From contig CM000429.1 in assembly GCA_000165345.1 (NCBI GenBank), forward strand, positions 384,001-448,000: DNA of 64,000 bases, written 5' to 3'. Of the stretch, positions 1-10,339 are shown piece by piece. Under the pieces are notes generated by a model. That model made no database searches. It saw only the letters and a program-made list of their open reading frames with translations, and was not told where the DNA came from. Every line of letters starts with the position of its first letter. Position 1 is the stretch's first letter. The translations under genes and the position numbers were made by a program.

Positions 1-23
1 TTTATCGACCATTTTTGTTTTGA

Positions 24-41
24 TTTTTTTTTTTTTTTTTT
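24..41. repeat. T18 homopolymer (A18 on the minus strand) in the 5' flank
   Basis: Direct read: an uninterrupted run of 18 T. Confidence 0.9.
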
Positions 42-330
42 GGCTTTTCCTCTATCTATTTTTTAACTAGTATAACTTTATTTATTAAGCTGAAAGTAGT
101 GAAATAGGATACATGCGATAGATCGTAATTATATCAAAATTTTGATGATAAATTAAACTTAAGTGATAAAACTCGCCTTTCTTAATTATTGATTAAAATG
201 CGGTAGTATTGGCTGCATTACTCCAGCCCAAAGTCTATTCAATTTATTATATTATGATTCTATATTTCTTAAGCTAGCAAAAATAGATTATAAGGCTGTA
301 TAAATTTTTAAAATAATATGACAAATAGAG

Positions 331-456
331 ATGCTTCAAAGTAGTGGAAAATTAAGAAAGAGCATTCGCATAGAACCTAGTATTTATCAGGCATGGGTGC
401 CTCCGATTTTTTCAGAGCCCAATCGCGAAGACGAAATAAAGATTTCATTTAAAAAG
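331..456 (+). CDS. Putative 5' exon (42 codons) of the giant AT-hook/PHD protein gene
   Basis: ATG at 331 is the first in-frame ATG after a TGA at 319-321. The open frame ends exactly at a canonical donor, AAG|GTAAGT at 457. The 88-nt intron has a T-rich tract and TTTTCTTCAG acceptor ending at 544. The downstream exon continues in phase 0 straight into the 641..9271 ORF, 32 codons with no stop. Confidence 0.45.
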
Positions 457-544
457 GTAAGTAAAATCTAATATATAAATATCCTACTGTGAATTTGTAC
501 ATTTTCATTTACTTGTTCTAACTCCTTTTATTTATTTTCTTCAG

Positions 545-3500
545 TGCGAACGTTTATATGATCCGAACCTTGTTGAGAATGAACAAACTGATAAAAAAAC
601 CGATGAAACCCTCAAAAATTTAAGATTTTTACTTAGGAGCATGGAAACTGATTTTAACTACCTCTCGGGAGAAAAAATATTGGAATATATGTCTAAAAAT
701 GTGTCGGAATCGCAACGCTTTCCTTCCTATGCAGAAAAATTAATACTAACACGAGATGAGGATCTAAACGTAACTAGTATTTCTCCTATAAAATATAAAA
801 CTGACTTGAATAGGATTAAATTATTCAAGGATGAGGTTTGCTGGTCCATCAATAAATCTCAAGACTCCATGACAACTCAAAATAAGAATTTATTAGACGA
901 AACAAAAATATCTGGTAAGGCTATTAACGATAAATCATACGTGGATTCTAGCCCCATCTCCTATGGAAAACTTTGGGAAAAAACGATAAATCAACATATT
1001 TTTATTAGCATCATAGACAATTGGAAGAAAAGTGTTGGTTTTATATTTAATGATAGCTACAAGAACCTAAAATATACTTTGAACGAGGGAATTGAGCTGC
1101 TACAAGAGGGGATAGCACTAAATAATAAAATTAGACTTCCAGAATTGGAAACTCTCGTAAATGCTGTTGAAGAATCGCTAGCATTCGAAGAAAAAATCAA
1201 AAAATTACTCTCTATAGACGACCCAACAGTAAATTTAGGAGCTCTCAAGTCTCCTTGTAAGATCCCAATTACAGAGTTATGTGAACTATTGAAAGAAGGA
1301 GAAAGCTGTTCGTTTAGGTCAAACTATTTGGATTTCTTGAAATGCCAATTAGAAAAGTTGAAGTCATGGAGGAGCAATGTACAATCTGCAATAATTGAGA
1401 AAAATTTGGATAAGTGCAAAGACTTAATAAAAGATAAAGACGAGATACTTATAGAAGTTCCAGGAATAAATGACCTTACCGAGCAAATAGCAGCAAGCAA
1501 CTGGATTGAAAAGGTTGAAAGAAGCCTTAGCCGTCCAATGAAATTTAATTTTGCAGAAAATTTATTAAATGAGCCCGCATCAAAATTTTTGGATGAAAAA
1601 AATGTGGCAGCTAAACAACAATTAATTAATAGAGTCCAAAAGGCTCAAGAATGGCTCAATGTTGTTCAATCTCCACCTTTTATATATAGCTTAGTTTCTG
1701 CCTGCAAAACTACAGCTCCAAATGACATATCTGAAGTAACACAAAAAATTATTGATCAAGCAAAGATAGAAATGGAAGAATCTAAAAATTGGAAGCTCCC
1801 AAGACCTACTGAATATGAAAAAGTTTGGCTTGAAAGTTCCACACTCAAAATTATTATTCCTTTGATGAAATATATGGAGCCTGTATATTTACGTTGGAGA
1901 AAATGGAACAAGAAATATAAAAGACTTATGGATGGACTGTGCATTTATATGGAAGCACAACTTATTTTAGAGGAAGCAGAATATACATTATGCGACTATC
2001 TAGATATGAGTGAATACCTTCCAGAATTACGCAAAAAAATTAAAGAGAGTGGTGATTGGCTAAATACTAGCAAGGAGTTTCTCAACACGATCTCAGACTT
2101 TCACACAAAACAAGATATTAACAATGTATCTTCAAGTATTTGGAATACTGTTGCCGGTATAAAAAAAGGAAGTGAGTTTTCAAGGCTTGAAATTCAACAA
2201 GCTTTAGACTTCATGAACTCCCAGTTTCATGAACGCTTAAGTTATGAAAAACTGAAGCAATTAATAGAAATTGGAAACGAGCTTACTATATATGAAATGA
2301 CAATCTTGCAAGAACTTACGTCCTGTCAAGATAGCTGTGAAAAATGGCTCAAAAAGGGAAAAGAATATTTAAAATGCTCTAAGATATCTGGAATTAACAT
2401 TGCAATGGTAATAAGCCTGTTATTAGAGCGTAGCTGCATTCTTGTTTCAAAAGAAACAGAAGATTCTCTTTTTGCTGAATTGCATTTCATCATTTGGAAA
2501 ATGGACATTAATGAGATCCAAGCTCCTATTAATGACTACGAATTAAGTTCGCTTATTGAAAGATTTAATGAAGTGAAGTTATATTTTGACTTTGATCATT
2601 CTAACTTGGCAAAAACACAAAATGAAAATCAAACCCAACCTAATAAATTGATCGCTCTATCCTTACCTAATATAAAAAAAGAAAATGAAGAATCAGACCC
2701 TCAAAATAATGAAGAGTTATTAGCTCATCACTCAAGCGTATGCGAAAATAATACTACACAATCTGAAGCAAGCTATGATCCAAAAAGTCCTGAAATTAGC
2801 ATTGAAGAAATAGATATTCAACAAATAAATATTTCACACTGGAACCAGATTAAAGAACTAGAAGCTGCCGCATTTATTACAAAACTACAAAATATCTTAA
2901 TTTATTGGACCAACTTAATTCATGAGTATGAGACTGAAAAGAAAGAAGTTGAAGTTTGGCGTAGTATTTTGGAAGACCTCAAGCATCTTCCAATTTCATT
3001 TAATAAACTTGAATTAAAAATCAACAAAATAATAAGTGATTATGATCGAATTATTTCGATTCTAAAATGCGGAGATGAAGAGTCTAATCATTTGCCAGAT
3101 TTAAAACACCCGTTTTCACTTTTATATTCTTATAAGAGACTTAATGAACTAAATATTGAGGTTTCCAACCTACCAGTGAAAATTTCTGAATGGGACAAAT
3201 GGCAAAAACACTTGGATGAACTAAACCAATGTGATGATTATACCCTCTCAATGTTCTCTTATTTGAAAGAGACAGAAATTATAGTTTCAAATTGTGAAAG
3301 CACAAGTATTGAACAAATTGAGAGGAAAAAGGTGATGGATTACTTAAATAATATAAACGAAAGACTTGTTTCAAATTCTGTTTGGGGTATTACTGACTTC
3401 AAAAGAATTTTAATAGATTTGAAGTTTACAGGTAAACTGATTCAGGACTTATCTATTTGTGAGTGTTGGATAAAAAGTGTAAAGGGAGATTCCTCAAATG

Positions 3501-6500
3501 ATCCAATGGGAATCGAACATTGGAATAGCTTGCTTCAAAGAGGAAGAACAATTAGAATAATTGACCACGAAATTTTCAATAAATTCGAAGCTCAAGTTAA
3601 GCAGTCAATAGAATGGAATGAAATATACTTCACAGCTCTGCATTCGGATGCATTTTGCAAAGTTATAAAGTATAAAAGGAATAGTAAACCATCTAATAAG
3701 ATAATTTACGAAATTGCAGAACTTTTGGTTAGAGTAGATTATGGAATAGGCGAAAGACTCGTTACTTTTAGAGAGCTAAGACAGAGCGTAAATTCTTTTG
3801 TAGAACTACGTAACCAGGGAATTAAATATTTGAATATATGTATTAATGAAAGAAGAGATAAAGTTTTTTCTAGGTTATTAAATAAATATTTGAATCAATC
3901 CCAAGTTTCTACTCAACAAAACTCAGAAGTTATAGACCAAATAAATTCAATTAAGCAATTTACATCTGATTTAAAGAACCTCCTGGAAAGCTGTAATCAA
4001 CACACAATTTCTATGGATTTAATAAGTTATATACAAGATGAGATTCTATTGCGTGAAATCAATCAGAAAATGTTCAACGCACTAATTAATCAAGAAAATC
4101 CTTATTTCACAACAAATTTATATGGTTATTCTGCTGCTTCAAATGATTCAAAGATCCCCACATTCGATGAAGCAAATGATATTGTTAACTTTATTAGAAT
4201 TAATGATTTAAATATTATGCCAGAAAACTATTCAAACATAAATGAGACCAATGGCTCTCAAACTCAGCTTTCATTTGAAATTCATGAAAAAAGTCAGCTC
4301 ACAATCAAAGAGCTTAAAGAAATAGTTTTGAATTCTGAATCTGTTTTAATGAAGGGCCTTGATTCAACTGGAATGTTAATTGAAAAGAAATACATTGATG
4401 TTGATCTGTTCAAAAAATTTAGGAAAGCTGTATATATTTCTAGTGAATGGTTGAAAGTTTTCAAGATTAATCATTTTAACATAATTGATAACATAAAAGC
4501 TGAAAGTTTTTATAATAGAGAAGTTCCAAAAAACTTGTTATCACTTAACGTTAAATCTTCAATAGATTATTTGTTAAAAGAATATCTTAAGAGCCAAGTA
4601 AGTGAGCTCGTGATTAATTCAGTACCAGAAAAAGAATGTGCTATCAATCAAGTCAAATTTGAGTTAAATTGGAATCAAATCCTTGAAAGATTTAATGAGT
4701 TGGAGATGAATGATTTAATCCAATTTAAAGGGAAAAATAATGATATTATTAAGAGATTGTTACATACTTTTGAAGTGGCTGATGAACGCTTAGATGATTA
4801 TTCAACAAAGCTTGATGAGAATATTCTATGCAAAAATGAACAATCTTCCGAGGAAGTATTTTTTGATGACTATTCAAAATATAGTGCCCCTTTATTTTTA
4901 AACCTTTTGCATTATTTAAGGAATAATAAGAGTGCTTTATCGAATTTTGCCGATGAAAAATCTTACTATGAAAGCCTACTCAACTCTATTAAATCACATA
5001 TAAATCTTAAATATTGTATCCACTTATCCGATGAAGAAAGATTAAATATTCAACAATTCGAAGAAAGTTTAGGTGTCAGCAGTAATTATAGATTAAGCGA
5101 TACAGAATTACAGAAAAATGAAACCATACAGGATCCAAATATATCAACTCAAAATATAAAATACAAAAGAAATAAGAGATCTAAATCGCTAATTAATGGA
5201 GAAAGGGTTAATGAAGAAAACATTGATAGTATTATCAATATATTAAGGAATATTGAAATGCCAAGTATCGAATTATCTCTTTTCCTAATCAATTTTGGAA
5301 AAAAGTTTGTTAAATTTGAATTAAAAGAATTCTCAAATTTATGTAAAATGGTTGAATTTTCTTTGCTTTGGATGGCCTTAGTTATTACTAAATTCCCAAA
5401 TTTTATAAAAGCGAGCCTGGGAGATGATATCAGTGAAATAAGTGGCATTGAAGCAATAAAAAAACAAAATAGTCAATTAGTTTTTGAAGATTGGGAGAAA
5501 AATGTTTGTTTTGATTTTTTCAGTACAAACAATATTTGTCTCGGTACTATTAATACTGGCGAAATAGCAAACTCTCAATGTAAGCGTCTTCAAAATACTT
5601 TGGAACTCAAAGAATTCGTCTCTTTAATTGAGACATGCGATCAATTACCAATTCAAATACCAATTAAATCGAGGCTTGTAAATATTCTTGTGGATGCATT
5701 AAAATGGACAATCTCCGCTAGAGAAGCAATATTACTATTACCTAGAAATACAATATTATGTCCATGGGTACATATTGAAGGAATAGTGGAAGAAATTACT
5801 CTACGCTCAAAGAATAGTCAAATAATGAAAACTATTGGCCTTGATAAGAATATTTATAATATCAAAGATGAAGAAATTATGAATATCATATCAAACTTCA
5901 ACGCTAATGAATATGAAACTTGTTCTAATTTTGAAAAGAATGGTGAAGTAGACATTCAAGTTAAAAAACTTCCAAGGCCTAGAGGAAGACCTAAAAGAGA
6001 ACAGGTTTGTGTGACAAAAAACGAATCACAATTTGAAGATATATTTAATAATATATGCATGGATTACAAAGAAATAGATCGCTTGCCTAATTGCGTTTTT
6101 CCAAAGTCATTTTATTTGTGGTTGTTAAATGAAAACAACAATAAATATTTTAGTGTTCAAGATTTGATGTCTATTACATCCAAGGATGAAGATAATAAAA
6201 ATTCCAAATTAAATAATTCCCAAAACTGTAATTCAAACATTGGATGGGAGAACGGTTACTTTTATTGGAATAAAAGCGGTAGTTCAGCTTCAAAAGAATC
6301 CATTGTTGAAGATGACTGTGGAAGTGATTGTAAATTGCAATATATTGGATTGATTGATCCCCAAAATTATCCAAAGAAGGAGGTTTATAAAAGCAAATTA
6401 TTGTTAGATTTTATCCTTTGCATTGAAGTATACAATAACATTCAAAACAATCCTGCAGAGTTGTGTTCTATTTGTTCCAATTTCAGAAAACGAAAACATA

Positions 6501-9271
6501 CTAATAATATTTCACCTCTAAACTGTAACTCTAGCTGGATTGTTTGCGAAGAATGCAGCCGTTGGTACCACCAGGATTGCGTTGGGTATTCCTCCAAGTC
6601 AAATAATTTTCCAGAGAAGCTATCAAATGGTTCTAATTCAGCAAATGAATTGTCATCTTGGACTTGCCCATCGTGTAGTTTGAGGTCTTCAACTTCAATT
6701 GGTCGTTCTAATTCAATTATTAACTTATTAAAAAACAGCAATAATCTTGAACTTTTTCATAGTAATAATGCTTACATACTTTCGGATATACACTGTAAAT
6801 CTATTGATCGAGCAGAAAAGAATAAAACTTATGATAAATCATTAAAAAGAGAAGTCCCAACTTTAGAAAACCTTAAGCAAATCATGAAGAGCAGTTTCTC
6901 TGATAAAATTTCTTTCATTAGGCTTCATGAAAGAAACGTAATTGCAAATACATTTTATCTATTTAATGTTTGGGTGAATGACTTTTATAGAATATTAAAA
7001 TGGGACCCATTTGAGTTTTCTGAATTTAATTCTTCAGTTTTCTTTGATCCAGCTGAGATTCAAGAACGCATAATGAATAAACAAATACTGAAAGAAAAGA
7101 GTGATCTTCTGGATAAAGCTGAAGAAGACGAAAATTTATTAAAGGAAAAACATATAGAGCATGAACAAGCTGTTGCTATGTCTGATATTACGCAAACTAG
7201 CCGTAAAGGTAGACTACTTAAAAACAAATTATCAGCAAAGGAGATGCTAAATCCTAAATTGAATTCCATTAAACCAAAGAAGGGAAGAAAGAGACGCTTG
7301 CTATTCCCAAGTACAGTTACTAAAAAACAAATTAGAAGAAGTTTTCCCTGTATGATTGATAACTCAGCTGGCACTCTACAAATAAACTTTGAAACGGTCT
7401 TCAAGGATATCTCTCCCGGCTGTAAATATAATATCGATCTAGATTATATAGGCAAAAATAAAATAATTGAAGCTGGCTTATCAAAGCCTTTAGAAATTGA
7501 TGAAATTATGAATTTGTATATTATTGGGTCTCTAATTGGTTTGGACGGAGCTGTTGAATTTGAGTGGTTATACTGTATATTAAAATATTTGGTATTCTTC
7601 AATTCTAAATTCGGATTTTATAACGAAAACCTTGCGTTACTAAACAGTTTTCAGCTCTCTGAAGAATTATCATTTATCAATACTCTCAAAAATCAAAAAA
7701 GACTTTCTTGGGAGGAATTCAAATATATCTTAGTTCATTTTTCACCAAACTTTCCAATAAAGCTTAATTCTTGCAAAATTTTTTATTTGAATTTACCAAA
7801 GTTGAGATCGATAAAACTAAAATGTAAATCAATTTTAGATTATATTAAAAATTCTAGCCAGGAAAACCTTACAAAACCTCAAAGTATTGATCAAAATAAT
7901 CGAAATTTGTTTACAGATCACGAGCAACACAAACTAAATGGGAAAAACTTTAAAACTGAGTTAGAGTCATTGTTAATTGGCATCGTCAAATCTGGAATAA
8001 TCATTCCTGAAGAAAAGATTGTTTCCCATTTATTGTTCACATACTGTTTGGAATCTATTTTACTGCTATATGGAAAACAAATTTCAAGTGTATATTGTAA
8101 CCAACTTAATCCAAAACCTTTGCATTCAACATTAGTTAATATTAATCAACACATTTTATTTTGGAAAGAGTCAGATGCTAATCTTTCAAAGATATATGGA
8201 ACCAGATTCATTCCTCCAGAATATAATGGTTTTGTTTTAGAAAATGAAGGCTCATGTTTCCAAAATCAGGAAAACAAACCCTTGTTGCGCATTCAACGCT
8301 TTATTAAATATTGTGAAACAATTCAAGAATCAATAAATCAATGCAATGAATGGAATGAAAGATACAAATTTTTAATGGAAACACCAAATGAATTTGAGAT
8401 TTATGTTAAGTTTCTTAAGCAGGGGCTAAATCTACCTTGTATTTACCCTACTGTATATTCTTTTGGAAATATATTAGCTTCAATAGAGAGCTACGAAGAC
8501 TTTGTAAATCAAGTTTTTGAAAGCCCAAGTAATGCTAGCTCGCTTACAAAAGCTTCAAATCCTCCAGGTAGCTTCAAACCATCATTTGCGCAAACAGTTG
8601 GTGCTATAGTTGGCTCCAGCCAACCCTCACTGAACCCAAAATTTGAAAATATTCAAATATTAAAAAATGTAAGGGAGTTCTTAAAAGGACTTCCTATTCA
8701 GAAGAGTGATTTAATTTTAAAAATAGACCAAATGGAAGAAAATACCCAACGTTTTATTGAAGGTATCAAACAAAAAATGCCGCAATTAAAGCAACTTAGT
8801 TCAACTGAAGCGTTAATTTCCCAATTACAACTAATTAAAGAAGAAGCGATTCACAAAGTTCCAATAATTGTCAATAATGTGCCTGAACTTAGGGAGTTAT
8901 TGAGTAATATCCCTGATTTTGGCTCCCCTCATCACAACTTGTTATTAAGAACTCAATTTCTTATGTCATTACAATGCCCAATTGCCAAGTTAAGGAAGCC
9001 ACTCAATCCATTCCCAAATATCCCGGAAGCTTCTTCTAGCCTATCTAGTGTCGTTGGACAAAGCCAAAATAACGAACTTCATCAGTCAGAAACTAAAGGA
9101 GAACTTATGGACTCTCAAGGAAATAATTCTAACAAGTCAATCTTACATGCGCCTGGCGGCGCAAATAGTAAAATTAACACATCTTGCCAACTACCAAACA
9201 GTATGTCATTTATCTGGCAAAACTTAGTCCAACAGGGGAGTAATCCTATGAGTCATTACTATTATAAATAA
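545..9271 (+). CDS. Giant nuclear/chromatin protein of about 2900 aa with an AT-hook (KKLPRPRGRPKRE) and a C4HC3 PHD finger (CSICSNF...CEECSRWYHQDC...WTCPSC), otherwise low-complexity. This is main exon 2; the track ORF 641..9271 is extended in frame back to the acceptor at 545.
   Basis: An 8.6-kb uninterrupted ORF. The PHD cysteine/histidine spacing and RGRP AT-hook are visible in the translation. Lys/Asn/Glu-rich composition is typical of apicomplexan nuclear proteins. Confidence 0.8.
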   Translation, partial: CERLYDPNLVENEQTDKKTDETLKNLRFLLRSMETDFNYLSGEKILEYMSKNVSESQRFPSYAEKLILTRDEDLNVTSISPIKYKTDLNRIKLFKDEVCWSINKSQDSMTTQNKNLLDETKISGKAINDKSYVDSSPISYGKLWEKTINQHIFISIIDNWKKSVGFIFNDSYKNLKYTLNEGIELLQEGIALNNKIRLPELETLVNAVEESLAFEEKIKKLLSIDDPTVNLGALKSPCKIPITELCELLKEGESCSFRSNYLDFLKCQLEKLKSWRSNVQSAIIEKNLDKCKDLIKDKDEILIEVPGINDLTEQIAASNWIEKVERSLSRPMKFNFAENLLNEPASKFLDEKNVAAKQQLINRVQKAQEWLNVVQSPPFIYSLVSACKTTAPNDISEVTQKIIDQAKIEMEESKNWKLPRPTEYEKVWLESSTLKIIIPLMKYMEPVYLRWRKWNKKYKRLMDGLCIYMEAQLILEEAEYTLCDYLDMSEYLPELRKKIKESGDWLNTSKEFLNTISDFHTKQDINNVSSSIWNTVAGIKKGSEFSRLEIQQALDFMNSQFHERLSYEKLKQLIEIGNELTIYEMTILQELTSCQDSCEKWLKKGKEYLKCSKISGINIAMVISLLLERSCILVSKETEDSLFAELHFIIWKMDINEIQAPINDYELSSLIERFNEVKLYFDFDHSNLAKTQNENQTQPNKLIALSLPNIKKENEESDPQNNEELLAHHSSVCENNTTQSEASYDPKSPEISIEEIDIQQINISHWNQIKELEAAAFITKLQNILIYWTNLIHEYETEKKEVEVWRSILEDLKHLPISFNKLELKINKIISDYDRIISILKCGDEESNHLPDLKHPFSLLYSYKRLNELNIEVSNLPVKISEWDKWQKHLDELNQCDDYTLSMFSYLKETEIIVSNCESTSIEQIERKKVMDYLNNINERLVSNSVWGITDFKRILIDLKFTGKLIQDLSICECWIKSVKGDSSNDPMGIEHWNSLLQRGRTIRIIDHEIFNKFEAQVKQSIEWNEIYFTALHSDAFCKVIKYKRNSKPSNKIIYEIAELLVRVDYGIGERLVTFRELRQSVNSFVELRNQGIKYLNICINERRDKVFSRLLNKYLNQSQVSTQQNSEVIDQINSIKQFTSDLKNLLESCNQHTISMDLISYIQDEILLREINQKMFNALINQENPYFTTNLYGYSAASNDSKIPTFDEANDIVNFIRINDLNIMPENYSNINETNGSQTQLSFEIHEKSQLTIKELKEIVLNSESVLMKGLDSTGMLIEKKYIDVDLFKKFRKAVYISSEWLKVFKINHFNIIDNIKAESFYNREVPKNLLSLNVKSSIDYLLKEYLKSQVSELVINSVPEKECAINQVKFELNWNQILERFNELEMNDLIQFKGKNNDIIKRLLHTFEVADERLDDYSTKLDENILCKNEQSSEEVFFDDYSKYSAPLFLNLLHYLRNNKSALSNFADEKSYYESLLNSIKSHINLKYCIHLSDEERLNIQQFEESLGVSSNYRLSDTELQKNETIQDPNISTQNIKYKRNKRSKSLINGERVNEENIDSIINILRNIEMPSIELSLFLINFGKKFVKFELKEFSNLCKMVEFSLLWMALVITKFPNFIKASLGDDISEISGIEAIKKQNSQLVFEDWEKNVCFDFFSTNNICLGTINTGEIANSQCKRLQNTLELKEFVSLIETCDQLPIQIPIKSRLVNILVDALKWTISAREAILLLPRNTILCPWVHIEGIVEEITLRSKNSQIMKTIGLDKNIYNIKDEEIMNIISNFNANEYETCSNFEKNGEVDIQVKKLPRPRGRPKREQVCVTKNESQFEDIFNNICMDYKEIDRLPNCVFPKSFYLWLLNENNNKYFSVQDLMSITSKDEDNKNSKLNNSQNCNSNIGWENGYFYWNKSGSSASKESIVEDDCGSDCKLQYIGLIDPQNYPKKEVYKSKLLLDFILCIEVYNNIQNNPAELCSICSNFRKRKHTNNISPLNCNSSWIVCEECSRWYHQDCVGYSSKSNNFPEKLSNGSNSANELSSWTCPSCSLRSSTSIGRSNSIINLLKNSNNLELFHSNNAYILSDIHCKSIDRAEKNKTYDKSLKREVPTLENLKQIMKSSFSDKISFIRLHERNVIANTFYLFNVWVNDFYRILKWDPFEFSEFNSSVFFDPAEIQERIMNKQILKEKSDLLDKAEEDENLLKEKHIEHEQAVAMSDITQTSRKGRLLKNKLSAKEMLNPKLNSIKPKKGRKRRLLFPSTVTKKQIRRSFPCMIDNSAGTLQINFETVFKDISPGCKYNIDLDYIGKNKIIEAGLSKPLEIDEIMNLYIIGSLIGLDGAVEFEWLYCILKYLVFFNSKFGFYNENLALLNSFQLSEELSFINTLKNQKRLSWEEFKYILVHFSPNFPIKLNSCKIFYLNLPKLRSIKLKCKSILDYIKNSSQENLTKPQSIDQNNRNLFTDHEQHKLNGKNFKTELESLLIGIVKSGIIIPEEKIVSHLLFTYCLESILLLYGKQISSVYCNQLNPKPLHSTLVNINQHILFWKESDANLSKIYGTRFIPPEYNGFVLENEGSCFQNQENKPLLRIQRFIKYCETIQESINQCNEWNERYKFLMETPNEFEIYVKFLKQGLNLPCIYPTVYSFGNILASIESYEDFVNQVFESPSNASSLTKASNPPGSFKPSFAQTVGAIVGSSQPSLNPKFENIQILKNVREFLKGLPIQKSDLILKIDQMEENTQRFIEGIKQKMPQLKQLSSTEALISQLQLIKEEAIHKVPIIVNNVPELRELLSNIPDFGSPHHNLLLRTQFLMSLQCPIAKLRKPLNPFPNIPEASSSLSSVVGQSQNNELHQSETKGELMDSQGNNSNKSILHAPGGANSKINTSCQLPNSMSFIWQNLVQQGSNPMSHYYYK

Positions 9272-9386: not shown

Positions 9387-9773
9387 ATGGAAAACTTAAT
9401 AATTATGTGGAGTTTAATGAAAAGTTGTTGTTATTCAATTGGAGGAAGCTCTTGCACAGATCCTGTCAATTTTAATGCAGATTGGTGTAGTTTGATACAT
9501 ACAAATGATGAGGAATCAAAAAATTTTCAATATAAGTTGAACTCCTCTAAAAGAGATGAATCTTCAGAAAACCAGAAAAAGATATCAATGAGCTCCACAG
9601 ATATTAATGATCTCGTAAACTATTTTATTAAATGCGCATTAAATGGAGTATCTGTCGATATTTATGATCAAGCAAGTCAGTCTTTTGTTTCAGGCAAATA
9701 TTTTATCAACAGAAATTTGAATATTATTACATTTAAGTCACCTGTACATACAATAATCATTCCATTTAAAGCT
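9387..9773 (+). CDS. Hypothetical small protein, possibly the first exon of a multi-exon gene
   Basis: A 133-aa ORF whose last codons overlap a canonical GTAAGT at 9774. AG acceptors downstream (9819, 10050) allow an in-frame continuation. No recognisable family; weak Roadblock/LC7-like pattern only. Confidence 0.2.
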
Positions 9774-10339
9774 GTAAGTTTATACTGAGGTAAACTGTCC
9801 AATTCTTACAAAATCTTAGATAAATACACTCCTAAACAGTTCTGAATTTAACTACTTGTATTCAAACAGCCATAACATGTCAAGCGACCACAACAAGCAA
9901 ATTATTACGATTATTTTCGATTCTAATATGGAAAAAAGTGACACAATTCCAATTCTATTTAATGATCAAAGCTCCGCCAACAATTTCTTACTTGTGGTCG
10001 AGATTCTGAGGTAAGCTGTAACTCAAATAACCCTGGAAAGCTATCTAACAGAATGCAGATACAATGAAATGAGCGACGAGAACTACAGGGAAAACTCAGA
10101 CGAGTCCATGGCTGAGAACAAAATTCCAAATTTGCAGTGAATTGAACAAGAGATAATAAAAGGTTAAGAAAAATGAAAATAATGAAAAAAAAGTACTGTT
10201 AGTTTAAAATACCTATTTAACAGCTTTCCTAGACTCGAGAAGATCCATAAAATCGATATTTATCTAACGTAATAAACTTATGTGAGAAACAGCTCCCATA
10301 GGATACGTAATTAATTATCACGTAGGATAATTTAACAGC

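What the first reader, a model, noticed from the sequence alone, without database searches (positions are those of the whole stretch)
331..9271. Giant AT-hook plus PHD-finger protein whose true start probably lies in a short upstream exon
The 2876-aa ORF (641..9271) is open upstream to 545, where a pyrimidine-rich TTTTCTTCAG acceptor sits. The region 331..456 is an ATG-initiated 42-codon frame ending exactly on AAG|GTAAGT, and the two pieces join in phase. Introns are rare and short in this genome type, so a coherent 88-nt intron is a specific, testable gene-model correction. The protein is otherwise almost featureless apart from one AT-hook (RPRGRPKRE) and one PHD finger. That suggests a large chromatin scaffold of unknown function.
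Basis: seen in the sequence. Interest (0 to 1): 0.55.

Follow-up and report, generated by a model that had tools for sequence, protein, structure and literature searches.

The report
Known two-exon Cryptosporidium chromatin gene
The proposed short first exon and 88-base intron of this giant Cryptosporidium parvum chromatin-protein gene are real, but current public annotations already contain exactly this gene model, so it confirms known work and is not a discovery.

Summary
ATG 331, a 42-codon exon ending AAG|GTAAGT at 456/457, an 88-nt AT-rich intron with a CTAAC branch site and TTCAG acceptor, and an in-phase join to the 8.7-kb ORF at 545 are all present. Random sequence of the same composition produces such an arrangement in about 0.07-0.8% of trials.

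The window is Cryptosporidium parvum chromosome 1. The spliced 2950-aa product is identical to deposited C. parvum proteins (QOY43464.1/CPATCC_000252 and two others). The unspliced 2876-aa ORF is the 2004 Iowa II model.

Nine Cryptosporidium species keep a 126-nt exon 1 with codon-periodic variation. All have an intron at the same site, 66-89 nt long with stops.

The exon-1 peptide carries an N-terminal motif ([KR]x[IV]Rx[DE]xxxYQAxVxPxF). This motif is also found in the "PLU-1 family" proteins of Besnoitia, Theileria, Babesia and Chromera.

The protein is not featureless. It has no JmjN/ARID/JmjC and no detectable DDT/WHIM/bromodomain.

Function is inferred only: a non-catalytic chromatin scaffold. 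Verdict: correct, ordinary, already known.

The parts
331..456 (+). Exon 1: start codon plus 42 codons (MLQSSGKLRKSIRIEPSIYQAWVPPIFSEPNREDEIKISFKK)
   Evidence: It is exactly 126 nt in nine Cryptosporidium species. Variable columns by codon position are 20/12/35, and 6/3/18 in codons 1-25. It forms the N-terminus of deposited C. parvum proteins.
349..414 (+). Conserved N-terminal family motif within exon 1 (KLRKSIRIEPSIYQAWVPPIFS; consensus [KR]x[IV]Rx[DE]xxxYQAxVxPxF)
   Evidence: Found near the N-terminus of Besnoitia P0024, Chromera P0026, Theileria/Babesia P0029/32/33/35/36/39 and unnamed P0031/37/38. Q20 is invariant and A21 and P25 are at least 90% conserved across 15 sequences.
457..544 (+). 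Phase-0 spliceosomal intron, 88 nt, 23% GC: donor GTAAGT 457-462, branch-site-like CTAAC 518-522, pyrimidine tract and CAG acceptor 523-544
   Evidence: An intron sits at the identical position in nine species, 66-89 nt long, with GTAAGT in 8/9, YAG in 9/9 and in-frame stops in all. Size and GC match published C. parvum intron statistics (mean 84-99 nt, 22% GC; PMC4637869).
545..9271 (+). Exon 2: remaining 2908 codons plus the TAA stop (9269-9271)
   Evidence: It is colinear with orthologues over its full length.
635..676 (+). Second conserved N-terminal motif (RSMETDFNYLSGEK; family consensus xFNxxSxE). Its Met (ATG 641) is the old annotated start.
   Evidence: F79 and N80 are invariant and S83 is at least 90% conserved in the family alignment. 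The Met is Lys or another residue in piroplasm and Chromera homologues, so it is an internal residue.
1022..2092 (+). PLU-1-like helical domain (Pfam PF08429), residues 202-558
   Evidence: E=6e-13, 49.1 bits, cut-off 28.5. Matched by 7/9 Cryptosporidium orthologues, best E 7e-20, and matched in distant homologues. The AlphaFold model is all-helical, with pLDDT 65-84 over roughly residues 190-500.
5969..6004 (+). AT-hook LPRPRGRPKREQ (the only GRP core in the protein)
   Evidence: R1853-R1860 are invariant in nine species.
6458..6688 (+). PHD finger (Cys4-His-Cys3) with a roughly 25-residue insert before the last Cys pair
   Evidence: Pfam PHD 26.4 bits against a cut-off of 24, matched in 9/9 orthologues. 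The nearest solved chains are DIDO1/DATF1, CFP1, KDM5B, BPTF, KDM5A, PHF2/8 and TAF3 PHD fingers. The motif W-[FY]-H-x-x-C-[VI]-G is shared with them.
7190..7300 (+). Conserved basic stretch TSRKGRLLKNK..KEMLNPK..KPKKGRKRR. Inferred to be a nuclear-localisation or DNA/RNA-contact patch; it is not a canonical AT-hook.
   Evidence: Invariant columns T2260-K2291; sequence.
8276..9016 (+). Highly conserved C-terminal region (residues 2620-2866), helical, with no known family
   Evidence: Dense invariant columns. The AlphaFold model has pLDDT 74-92 for model residues roughly 200-360. No Pfam hit and no PDB fold match below E=0.1.

Best explanation
This is the chromosome-1 Cryptosporidium parvum gene for the 'PHD-finger/AT-hook containing chromatin protein' (CPATCC_000252). 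It has two exons. Translation starts at ATG 331. A canonical U2-type GT-AG intron (457..544, phase 0) is removed, giving a 2950-aa protein. Exon 1 supplies an ancient N-terminal motif that, together with a PLU-1-like helical domain, defines a family found in apicomplexans and chromerids and annotated as 'PLU-1 family' or 'lysine-specific demethylase-like domain' proteins. These proteins resemble the non-catalytic C-terminal half of KDM5/JARID1 demethylases (PLU-1 domain plus PHD) but have no JmjN, ARID or JmjC. The rest is inferred, not shown. The protein would act as a non-enzymatic nuclear scaffold. It would be anchored to AT-rich DNA by the AT-hook, and to H3K4-methylated nucleosomes by a PHD finger most similar in sequence to PHD fingers described as H3K4me3 readers. 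The N-terminal motif, the PLU-1 helices and the conserved C-terminal block would serve as protein-protein docking surfaces for chromatin-modifying complexes.
For: Gene model:
- Sequence anatomy fits a canonical intron, and chance expectation is 0.07-0.85%.
- The spliced product is identical to QOY43464.1, WKS76064.1 and WRK30556.1 (C. parvum). The same 2950-aa architecture occurs in C. hominis, with 2948-2949 aa in C. meleagridis and C. tyzzeri.
- The orthologous intron is present in nine species. Exon 1 is fixed at 126 nt and intron length varies from 66 to 89 nt (6/9 not a multiple of 3). All introns contain stops, and nucleotide identity dips in the intron (0.53-0.73) relative to exon 1 (0.74-0.95).
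- Exon 1 shows third-position-biased variation.
- Baptista et al. [quoted passage not shown]

Family:
- An exhaustive HMM search of 1.8 billion representatives with residues 1-720 gave only 20 hits at E<=0.001. The named ones are Besnoitia, Theileria, Babesia, Cardiosporidium and Chromera proteins.
- They share the N-terminal motifs. The homologues scanned against Pfam, other than Besnoitia P0024, match PLU-1, and three of the large ones also match PHD (Chromera and P0031 below the Pfam cut-off). None gave a JmjC, JmjN or ARID match.

Function:
- The AT-hook and PHD are invariant across the genus.
- The PHD is closest in sequence to the solved PHD fingers of DIDO1, CFP1, KDM5B, BPTF and TAF3. 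That these bind H3K4me3 is from my own knowledge of those proteins and was not tested here.
- The T. gondii PLU-1 family protein was recovered at low peptide counts in GCN5b/AP2 nuclear pull-downs (PMC3879359 supplement) and is listed among gene-regulation phosphoproteins (PMC10634940).
Against: - No transcript or junction read was inspected directly here; RNA support rests on a general statement in the annotation paper.
- A scan of metagenome contigs for the exon-exon junction found nothing, which is uninformative.
- A conserved out-of-frame uATG lies 13 nt upstream of ATG 331 in all nine species. Depending on where transcription starts, this could reduce initiation at 331.
- Function is untested. 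No family member has been characterised.
- Structure models were of low confidence (mean pLDDT 54 and 57) and matched no solved fold.
- The T. gondii pull-down counts (4 and 2 peptides) are near background.
Confidence: 0.9

Rival explanations
1. Unspliced model: the gene is the single 2876-aa ORF starting at ATG 641 (the 2004 Iowa II annotation, EAK88431.1/XP_628004.1). On this view the upstream 42-codon frame is non-coding leader or a separate small ORF.
For: The ORF 641..9271 stands alone and is deposited as such, and gene callers on genomic Logan contigs give the same product. Deposited models for C. sp. chipmunk, C. xiaoi and a Logan contig also start at METDFN. On L008, exon 1 is called as a separate 66-aa gene.
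Against: Exon 1 is conserved as protein in nine species with a synonymous bias. It is also present upstream in the three species whose models omit it. Its motif is at the N-terminus of homologues in other apicomplexans and Chromera, where the 'start' Met of METDFN is replaced by other residues. Later curated annotations use the spliced model.
Confidence: 0.04
2. Same first exon and donor, but a different, further-downstream acceptor. This is the C. hominis UdeA01 model (CUV04106.1, 2903 aa), which joins ...ISFKK directly to YMSKN... and drops 47 residues.
For: Such a model is deposited (P0018) and it keeps the reading frame.
Against: In this window the implied acceptor dinucleotide is AA (684-685), not AG. 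The 47 skipped residues include the METDFNxLSxE block, which is invariant in the genus and conserved family-wide (F79 and N80 invariant). All other spliced models use the 544/545 acceptor.
Confidence: 0.01
3. Functional rival A: the protein is a stoichiometric subunit of the apicomplexan GCN5b/ADA2 acetyltransferase co-activator complex. It would play the H3K4me3-anchoring role that PfPHD1 plays in Plasmodium.
For: The T. gondii PLU-1 family protein was detected in GCN5b and AP2 pull-downs (PMC3879359 supplement). PfPHD1 is likewise a giant protein with AT-hooks and a C-terminal H3K4me3-binding PHD, and it anchors PfGCN5 (PMC8396726).
Against: Peptide counts were 4 and 2, against 20-38 for the two PHD proteins marked as core in the same table. 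The protein is not in the published core-complex table. PfPHD1 has four PHDs and no reported PLU-1 domain. None of the named hits of the exhaustive search is from Plasmodium.
Confidence: 0.2
4. Functional rival B: the exon-1/exon-2 N-terminal segment is a divergent ELM2-like module that recruits a class I histone deacetylase. That would make the protein a co-repressor scaffold.
For: The only Pfam hit of the 94-residue spliced N-terminus is ELM2 (PF01448), residues 18-66, which spans the exon junction, at E=0.024. The motif IRxxxxYQAxVP resembles the ELM2 signature IRVGxxYQAxIP; that signature is from my own knowledge.
Against: The score of 15.9 bits is below the 21.7-bit cut-off. Only 1 of 15 family N-termini hits ELM2. 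Profile and single-sequence searches of PDB found no MTA1, CoREST or MIER chain. No SANT/Myb domain follows. The region is predicted disordered, with pLDDT about 30.
Confidence: 0.1

Closest known systems
C. parvum IOWA-ATCC CPATCC_000252 (QOY43464.1), 'PHD-finger/AT hook containing chromatin protein'; also WKS76064.1 and WRK30556.1
   Same: The 2950-aa sequence is identical to the spliced product of window 331..456 + 545..9268.
   Different: Nothing differs. The older Iowa II model (EAK88431.1/XP_628004.1, 2876 aa) lacks exon 1.
Apicomplexan/chromerid 'PLU-1 family protein' / 'lysine-specific demethylase-like domain-containing protein' (Besnoitia XP_029216712.1, T. gondii TGME49_253750 by name, Chromera Cvel_6656, Theileria/Babesia XP_004833557.1, XP_001610738.1 and others)
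   Same: They share the N-terminal motif [KR]x[IV]Rx[DE]xxxYQAxVxPxF, then xFNxxSxE, then a PLU-1 domain roughly 120-390 residues from the N-terminus in most members. Several large members also have a late PHD finger. None gave a JmjC match.
   Different: Sizes range from about 740 aa (piroplasms, N-terminal half only) to about 4900 aa (coccidia). Identity is only 17-21% outside the genus. The AT-hook is not universal. No member has a demonstrated function.
KDM5/JARID1 histone H3K4 demethylases (PLU-1 = KDM5B)
   Same: A PLU-1 helical domain above the Pfam threshold, followed by a PHD finger that resembles the KDM5A and KDM5B PHD fingers in PDB.
   Different: No JmjN, ARID, JmjC or C5HC2 zinc finger was detected in any of nine orthologues or in distant homologues, so no demethylase activity is expected. 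Canonical KDM5 proteins did not reach E<=0.001 in the family HMM search.
Plasmodium falciparum PfPHD1 (PF3D7_1008100), a GCN5-complex subunit
   Same: A giant nuclear protein with AT-hooks and a C-terminal canonical H3K4me3-type PHD that anchors a chromatin-modifying complex (PMC8396726). This is a model for how the Cryptosporidium protein may work.
   Different: PfPHD1 has four PHD fingers and no reported PLU-1 domain. No sequence relationship was shown here.
ELM2 domain proteins (MTA1, CoREST, MIER; Pfam PF01448)
   Same: A short IR...YQA.VP-like motif at the start of the module, with a sub-threshold Pfam match to residues 18-66.
   Different: The match is below the Pfam cut-off, is not shared by family members, is not followed by a SANT domain, and has no PDB support.

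Membership tests
U2-type GT-AG spliceosomal intron of Cryptosporidium | 5' splice site GT with a GTAAGT-like consensus | tested here: met
   AAG|GTAAGT at 456/457. GTAAGT in 8/9 species and GTACGT in C. muris.
U2-type GT-AG spliceosomal intron of Cryptosporidium | 3' splice site YAG preceded by a pyrimidine tract, with a branch-site adenosine 15-40 nt upstream | tested here: met
   TTTATTTATTTTCTTCAG|TGC, with CTAAC at 518-522 and its A 23 nt from the 3' splice site. YAG in 9/9 species.
U2-type GT-AG spliceosomal intron of Cryptosporidium | Length and composition typical of the genome (mean 84-99 nt, 22% GC) | tested here: met
   88 nt and 23% GC, against exon 1 at 37%. Published values are in PMC4637869.
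U2-type GT-AG spliceosomal intron of Cryptosporidium | Removal restores one open reading frame; retention does not | tested here: met
   The spliced CDS is 8853 nt with a single terminal stop. Read-through meets stops in all nine species.
U2-type GT-AG spliceosomal intron of Cryptosporidium | Position conserved in orthologues while the intron sequence and length drift | tested here: met
   The same phase-0 site after codon 42 in nine species. Lengths are 66-89 nt and intron identity is lower than in the flanking exons.
U2-type GT-AG spliceosomal intron of Cryptosporidium | Junction-spanning transcript reads | not testable with these tools
   No RNA-seq data were accessible. Baptista et al. 2022 state that all introns of the annotation holding this model are RNA-seq supported. 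The junction 34-mer is absent from metagenome contigs (uninformative).
PLU-1 domain (Pfam PF08429) | Score above the Pfam gathering threshold | tested here: met
   49.1 bits against 28.5, E=6e-13, residues 202-558. Matched by 7/9 orthologues, best E 7e-20.
KDM5/JARID1 demethylase | JmjN plus JmjC catalytic domains | tested here: not met
   No JmjN or JmjC hit at E<=1 in the protein or in nine orthologues, nor in distant homologues at E<=0.01. The gene starts at 331, with AT-rich non-coding sequence upstream.
KDM5/JARID1 demethylase | ARID DNA-binding domain and C5HC2 zinc finger | tested here: not met
   No Pfam hit.
KDM5/JARID1 demethylase | PLU-1 domain followed by PHD finger(s) | tested here: met
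   PLU-1 at residues 202-558 and PHD at residues 2014-2090.
PHD finger (Pfam PF00628) | Cys4-His-Cys3 zinc-binding pattern and a score above threshold | tested here: met
   C2016, C2019, C2043, C2046, H2051, C2054, C2083 and C2086 are invariant. 26.4 bits against a cut-off of 24.
H3K4me3-reader subclass of PHD fingers | Aromatic-cage residues, including the Trp two residues before the zinc-binding His | tested here: inconclusive
   SRWYHQDCVGY aligns with the W[FY]H..C[VI]G of DIDO1, CFP1 and KDM5B, and BPTF and TAF3 PHD fingers are also among the hits. However W2049 is not invariant in the genus alignment, the other cage positions were not mapped, and no binding data exist.
AT-hook | R-G-R-P core flanked by basic residues and Pro | tested here: met
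   PRPRGRPKRE is the single GRP core. R1853-R1860 are invariant in nine species.
ELM2 domain (Pfam PF01448) | Score above the gathering threshold, shared by family members, and usually followed by SANT | tested here: not met
   15.9 bits against 21.7, E=0.024, C. parvum only (1/15). No SANT hit. No ELM2 chain in PDB searches.
   None appears among the Pfam hits at E<=1 in nine orthologues. Foldseek of two modelled regions against PDB gave nothing below E=0.1.
Apicomplexan/chromerid PLU-1 family (JmjC-less) | N-terminal [KR]x[IV]Rx[DE]xxxYQAxVxPxF motif, then xFNxxSxE, then the PLU-1 domain | tested here: met
   All three elements are present in the spliced product. They align with Besnoitia, Chromera, Theileria and Babesia proteins.

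The most novel reading that the evidence does not exclude
The peptide encoded across the exon-1/exon-2 junction would be a functional docking module, not filler. On this reading the motif IRxxxxYQAxVPxF, conserved from Chromera to Cryptosporidium, is a very divergent ELM2-like or otherwise new short linear element. It would tether a histone-modifying enzyme, such as a class I HDAC or the GCN5b complex, to a JmjC-less, KDM5-derived scaffold carrying a PHD finger of the kind described as an H3K4me3 reader. The strictly conserved out-of-frame uATG at -13 would add translational control of this scaffold.
Probability: 0.12. Interest if true: 0.5.

Novelty: already known. Interest (0 to 1): 0.12.

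Why it matters
For annotation, nothing changes in C. parvum. The model is already in GenBank, and the annotation paper says its introns are RNA-seq supported.

There is a small practical gain. The same exon 1 is present but unannotated in the deposited models of C. sp. chipmunk genotype and C. xiaoi. The C. hominis UdeA01 model uses an implausible acceptor. The C. ubiquitum and C. ryanae models are fused to the downstream gene. All of these could be corrected by homology.

Biologically, the gene belongs to an uncharacterised family specific to apicomplexans and chromerids. The family looks like the non-catalytic half of a KDM5 demethylase, and its defining N-terminal motif is the part the old annotation cut off. 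Anyone tagging, truncating or expressing this protein should use the 2950-aa form.

Tried and rejected
1. A further upstream coding exon was rejected. The in-frame stop at 319-321 lies 9 nt before ATG 331. In C. ryanae and C. xiaoi there is no AG between that stop and the ATG, and Met1 onward is invariant.
2. The region 1..700 was scanned as a structured or known RNA. Rfam gave only a chance-level hit at E=0.53.
3. ATGCGGTAG was tested as a recurrent promoter motif. There is one exact copy in 64 kb. One-mismatch copies number 11 against 3.8 expected, but they are scattered inside genes. This was not pursued.
4. Internal PLU-1-like repeats along the 2950 aa were tested by hhalign of 11 segments against each other. 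The best probability was 32%, so repeats are not supported.
5. ELM2 membership rests on one sub-threshold hit and failed every cross-check.
6. Structure prediction of residues 1-720 and 2340-2880 gave all-helical models with mean pLDDT 54 and 57. Foldseek against PDB found nothing below E=0.1. The afdb50 library was unavailable.
7. Word-indexed homology searches with the full-length profile found only the nine Cryptosporidium proteins. The search with the cross-phylum alignment A6 found nothing at all, probably because low-complexity runs swamped the candidates.
8. An exon-junction 34-mer scan of metagenome contigs gave 0 hits.
9. Literature searches for this Cryptosporidium protein or for a characterised PLU-1 family member in Plasmodium or Toxoplasma found only list entries.

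Full report
**What is in the sequence.** The window is AT-rich (about 30% GC). At the stated coordinates there is an ATG at 331 opening a 42-codon frame. That frame ends exactly at AAG|GTAAGT (456/457). Next comes an 88-nt stretch of 23% GC (exon 1 is 37%) that contains a CTAAC branch-site-like element at 518-522. It ends in TTTATTTATTTTCTTCAG|TGC at 544/545.

Joining 331..456 to 545..9271 gives an 8853-nt CDS of 2950 codons with one terminal stop. One detail differs from the finding. The large ORF's frame is open upstream to 479, not just to 545, but it has no ATG there and the exon-1 frame closes at 469.

I generated 20,000 random upstream regions with the same dinucleotide statistics. Only 0.065% contained any ATG-exon/GTAAGT...YAG arrangement that joins the ORF in frame, and 0.85% did with a relaxed donor.

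**Identity and prior knowledge.** A homology search returned nine Cryptosporidium proteins. The best is a C. hominis protein of exactly 2950 aa that begins MLQSSGKLRKSIRIEPS....

An exact-sequence look-up shows that the spliced product is already deposited for C. parvum as QOY43464.1 (CPATCC_000252, 'PHD-finger/AT hook containing chromatin protein'), WKS76064.1 and WRK30556.1. These sit on contigs of about 0.88-0.92 Mb, which is chromosome-1 sized. The unspliced 2876-aa ORF is EAK88431.1/XP_628004.1, the original Iowa II annotation.

The paper describing the IOWA-ATCC annotation reports manual, evidence-based curation. [quoted passage not shown] An earlier re-annotation had already raised the share of intron-containing genes from 4.3% to 10.8%. 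It gives a mean intron length of 84-99 nt at 22% GC (PMC4637869), which fits this intron well.

**Independent comparative test.** I fetched the orthologous loci of eight further species or genotypes: C. ubiquitum, C. canis, C. felis, C. muris, C. ryanae, C. xiaoi, the chipmunk genotype and one Logan assembly. The results are as follows.

- Exon 1 is 126 nt in all nine.
- An intron sits at the same phase-0 position after codon 42.
- The donor is GTAAGT in eight species and GTACGT in C. muris.
- The acceptor is YAG after a pyrimidine-rich run.
- Intron lengths are 66, 67, 75, 75, 76, 79, 88, 89 and 89 nt. Six of the nine are not multiples of three.
- Read-through meets stop codons in every species.
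- Nucleotide identity to C. parvum is higher in exon 1 (0.74-0.95) than in the intron (0.53-0.73).
- Variable alignment columns in exon 1 fall 20/12/35 on codon positions 1/2/3, and 6/3/18 in the first 25 codons. This is the signature of purifying selection on a protein.

Exon 1 is also present 297-311 nt upstream of the annotated start in the three assemblies whose deposited models begin at METDFN. On the Logan contig it is even called as a separate 66-aa gene.

A third deposited model, C. hominis UdeA01 (2903 aa), uses the same donor but joins it to YMSKN. In this window that would need an AA acceptor. It would also delete 47 residues that include the invariant METDFNxLSxE block, so I reject it.

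**Is there yet another upstream exon?** No. An in-frame TGA lies at 319-321. In C. ryanae and C. xiaoi no AG dinucleotide exists between the corresponding stop and the ATG, and the protein is invariant from Met1.

**What the protein is.** The match has E=6e-13 and scores 49 bits against a cut-off of 28.5. It is present in 7/9 orthologues with a best E of 7e-20.

The single AT-hook (PRPRGRPKRE) and the Cys4-His-Cys3 PHD finger are invariant across the genus. The PHD finger's nearest solved relatives are the PHD fingers of DIDO1/DATF1, CFP1, KDM5B, BPTF, KDM5A, PHF2/8 and TAF3, with which it shares the W-[FY]-H-x-x-C-[VI]-G motif. By my own knowledge these are H3K4me3 readers, so H3K4me2/3 reading is a reasonable inference, but it is untested.

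No JmjN, ARID, JmjC, C5HC2, SANT, DDT, WHIM or bromodomain hit appears at E<=1 in any of nine orthologues.

**The wider family.** An exhaustive HMM search of 1.8 billion representative proteins with residues 1-720 found only 20 proteins at E<=0.001. The named ones are:

- Besnoitia besnoiti 'PLU-1 family protein' (4859 aa);
- Chromera velia Cvel_6656 (4203 aa);
- Cardiosporidium 'PLU-1 family protein';
- 740-1000-aa Theileria and Babesia 'lysine-specific demethylase-like domain' proteins.

T. gondii TGME49_253750 carries the same name, but I did not test its sequence here.

All of them have, close to the N-terminus, the motif [KR]x[IV]Rx[DE]xxxYQAxVxPxF. Examples are Cryptosporidium SIRIEPSIYQAWVPPIF, Besnoitia SVRVDALTYQAWTNPFV, Chromera MIRTDELRYQAFVDPDF and Theileria SIRVDILSRQAFVSPIF. 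A second motif, xFNxxSxE, follows. In all but Besnoitia, where the best-matching stretch starts near residue 1126, the PLU-1 domain begins some 120-390 residues from the N-terminus.

The first motif is encoded by exon 1. The old 'start' Met of METDFN is a Lys or another residue in the distant homologues. This is strong evidence from outside the genus that exon 1 is coding and that the protein's true N-terminus is at 331.

Canonical KDM5 demethylases did not reach significance with this profile. The family is best described as a JmjC-less relative of the KDM5 C-terminal half, restricted as far as the named hits show to apicomplexans and chromerids.

**How it most likely works (inference).** The protein is probably a large, mostly helical, non-enzymatic chromatin scaffold. 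The AT-hook would contact the minor groove of AT-rich DNA. The PHD finger would contact H3K4-methylated tails. The N-terminal motif, the PLU-1 helices and the highly conserved C-terminal block (residues 2620-2866) would act as protein-docking surfaces.

There are two leads on partners, both weak.

- The T. gondii PLU-1 family protein appears with 4 and 2 peptides in GCN5b/AP2 pull-downs. The two core PHD proteins in the same table have 20-38 peptides (PMC3879359 supplement; core table). The Plasmodium GCN5 complex is anchored by an analogous giant AT-hook/PHD protein, PfPHD1 (PMC8396726).
- The spliced N-terminus gives a lone sub-threshold Pfam match to ELM2 (E=0.024, residues 18-66, spanning the splice junction). 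This is not reproduced in 14 other family members or in PDB searches.

I rate the generic scaffold reading at roughly 0.5-0.6, GCN5 association at about 0.2 and an ELM2-like HDAC tether at about 0.1.

**What did not work.**

- AlphaFold models of residues 1-720 and 2340-2880 were helical but of low confidence. Mean pLDDT was 54 and 57, and the first 189 residues look disordered. Neither matched a solved fold.
- Tests for internal repeats were negative.
- Two word-indexed homology searches added nothing.
- A junction-sequence scan of metagenome contigs was empty.

**Verdict.** However, the gene model is already public and the protein belongs to an already named, though functionally uncharacterised, family. 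Interest is low. The only mildly new points are two. First, the exon-1 peptide carries the family's conserved N-terminal motif. Second, several deposited orthologue models still lack exon 1 or mis-join it.

Noticed in passing
window 195-207, 251-262, 314-321 (5' of ATG 331): The three best-conserved blocks of the upstream region each contain an ATG. They are AAAATGCGGTAGT (ATG-CGG-TAG, invariant in the nine-species alignment), TATTATGATTCT (a short uORF MILYF.. in 8/9 species) and TAATATGA. The last gives an out-of-frame uATG exactly 13 nt before the start codon in 9/9 species; it overlaps the start in seven species and stops just before it in C. ryanae and C. xiaoi. These could be regulatory uORFs or promoter elements; the transcription start is unknown.
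   Followed up: partly
window 9387..10140 (+): The 133-aa ORF 9387..9788 is only the first exon of a three-exon gene. Intron 1 is 9774..9819 (GTAAGT...TTAG, 46 nt, phase 0). Intron 2 is 10011..10058 (GTAAGC...GCAG, 48 nt, phase 2). The stop is at 10138-10140. The spliced reading matches the C-terminal extension seen in the C. ubiquitum and C. ryanae models.
   Followed up: partly
L001 (C. ubiquitum, P0003) and L005 (C. ryanae, P0007): These deposited models (3147 and 3098 aa) fuse the giant gene to the downstream small gene. In P0003 the conserved ...HYYYK stop is spliced away; P0007 runs straight on past ...HCYYK. They are probably merged-gene annotation errors.
   Followed up: no
L006 1209-1334 (C. 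xiaoi), L007 1190-1315 (chipmunk genotype), L008 1204-1329 (Logan SRR31860986): Exon 1 and the intron are present but missing from the deposited or called proteins P0008, P0002 and P0004, which start at or just before METDFN. On L008 exon 1 plus intron read-through is called as a separate 66-aa gene.
   Followed up: yes
P0018 (C. hominis UdeA01, CUV04106.1); corresponds to window 456|686: This alternative deposited model uses the same donor but an acceptor that would be AA in this window. It deletes 47 conserved residues.
   Followed up: yes
P0032 (Babesia ovis GFE54007.1): A PLU-1 family N-terminal half is joined to a ThiF-family domain (residues 1139-1385) in one 1484-aa model. Other piroplasm members end at about 770-1000 aa, so this is probably two merged genes.
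   Followed up: no
window 7060..7404 (-): A 114-aa TTG-initiated ORF lies antisense inside exon 2. Nothing suggests it is more than a chance ORF.
   Followed up: no
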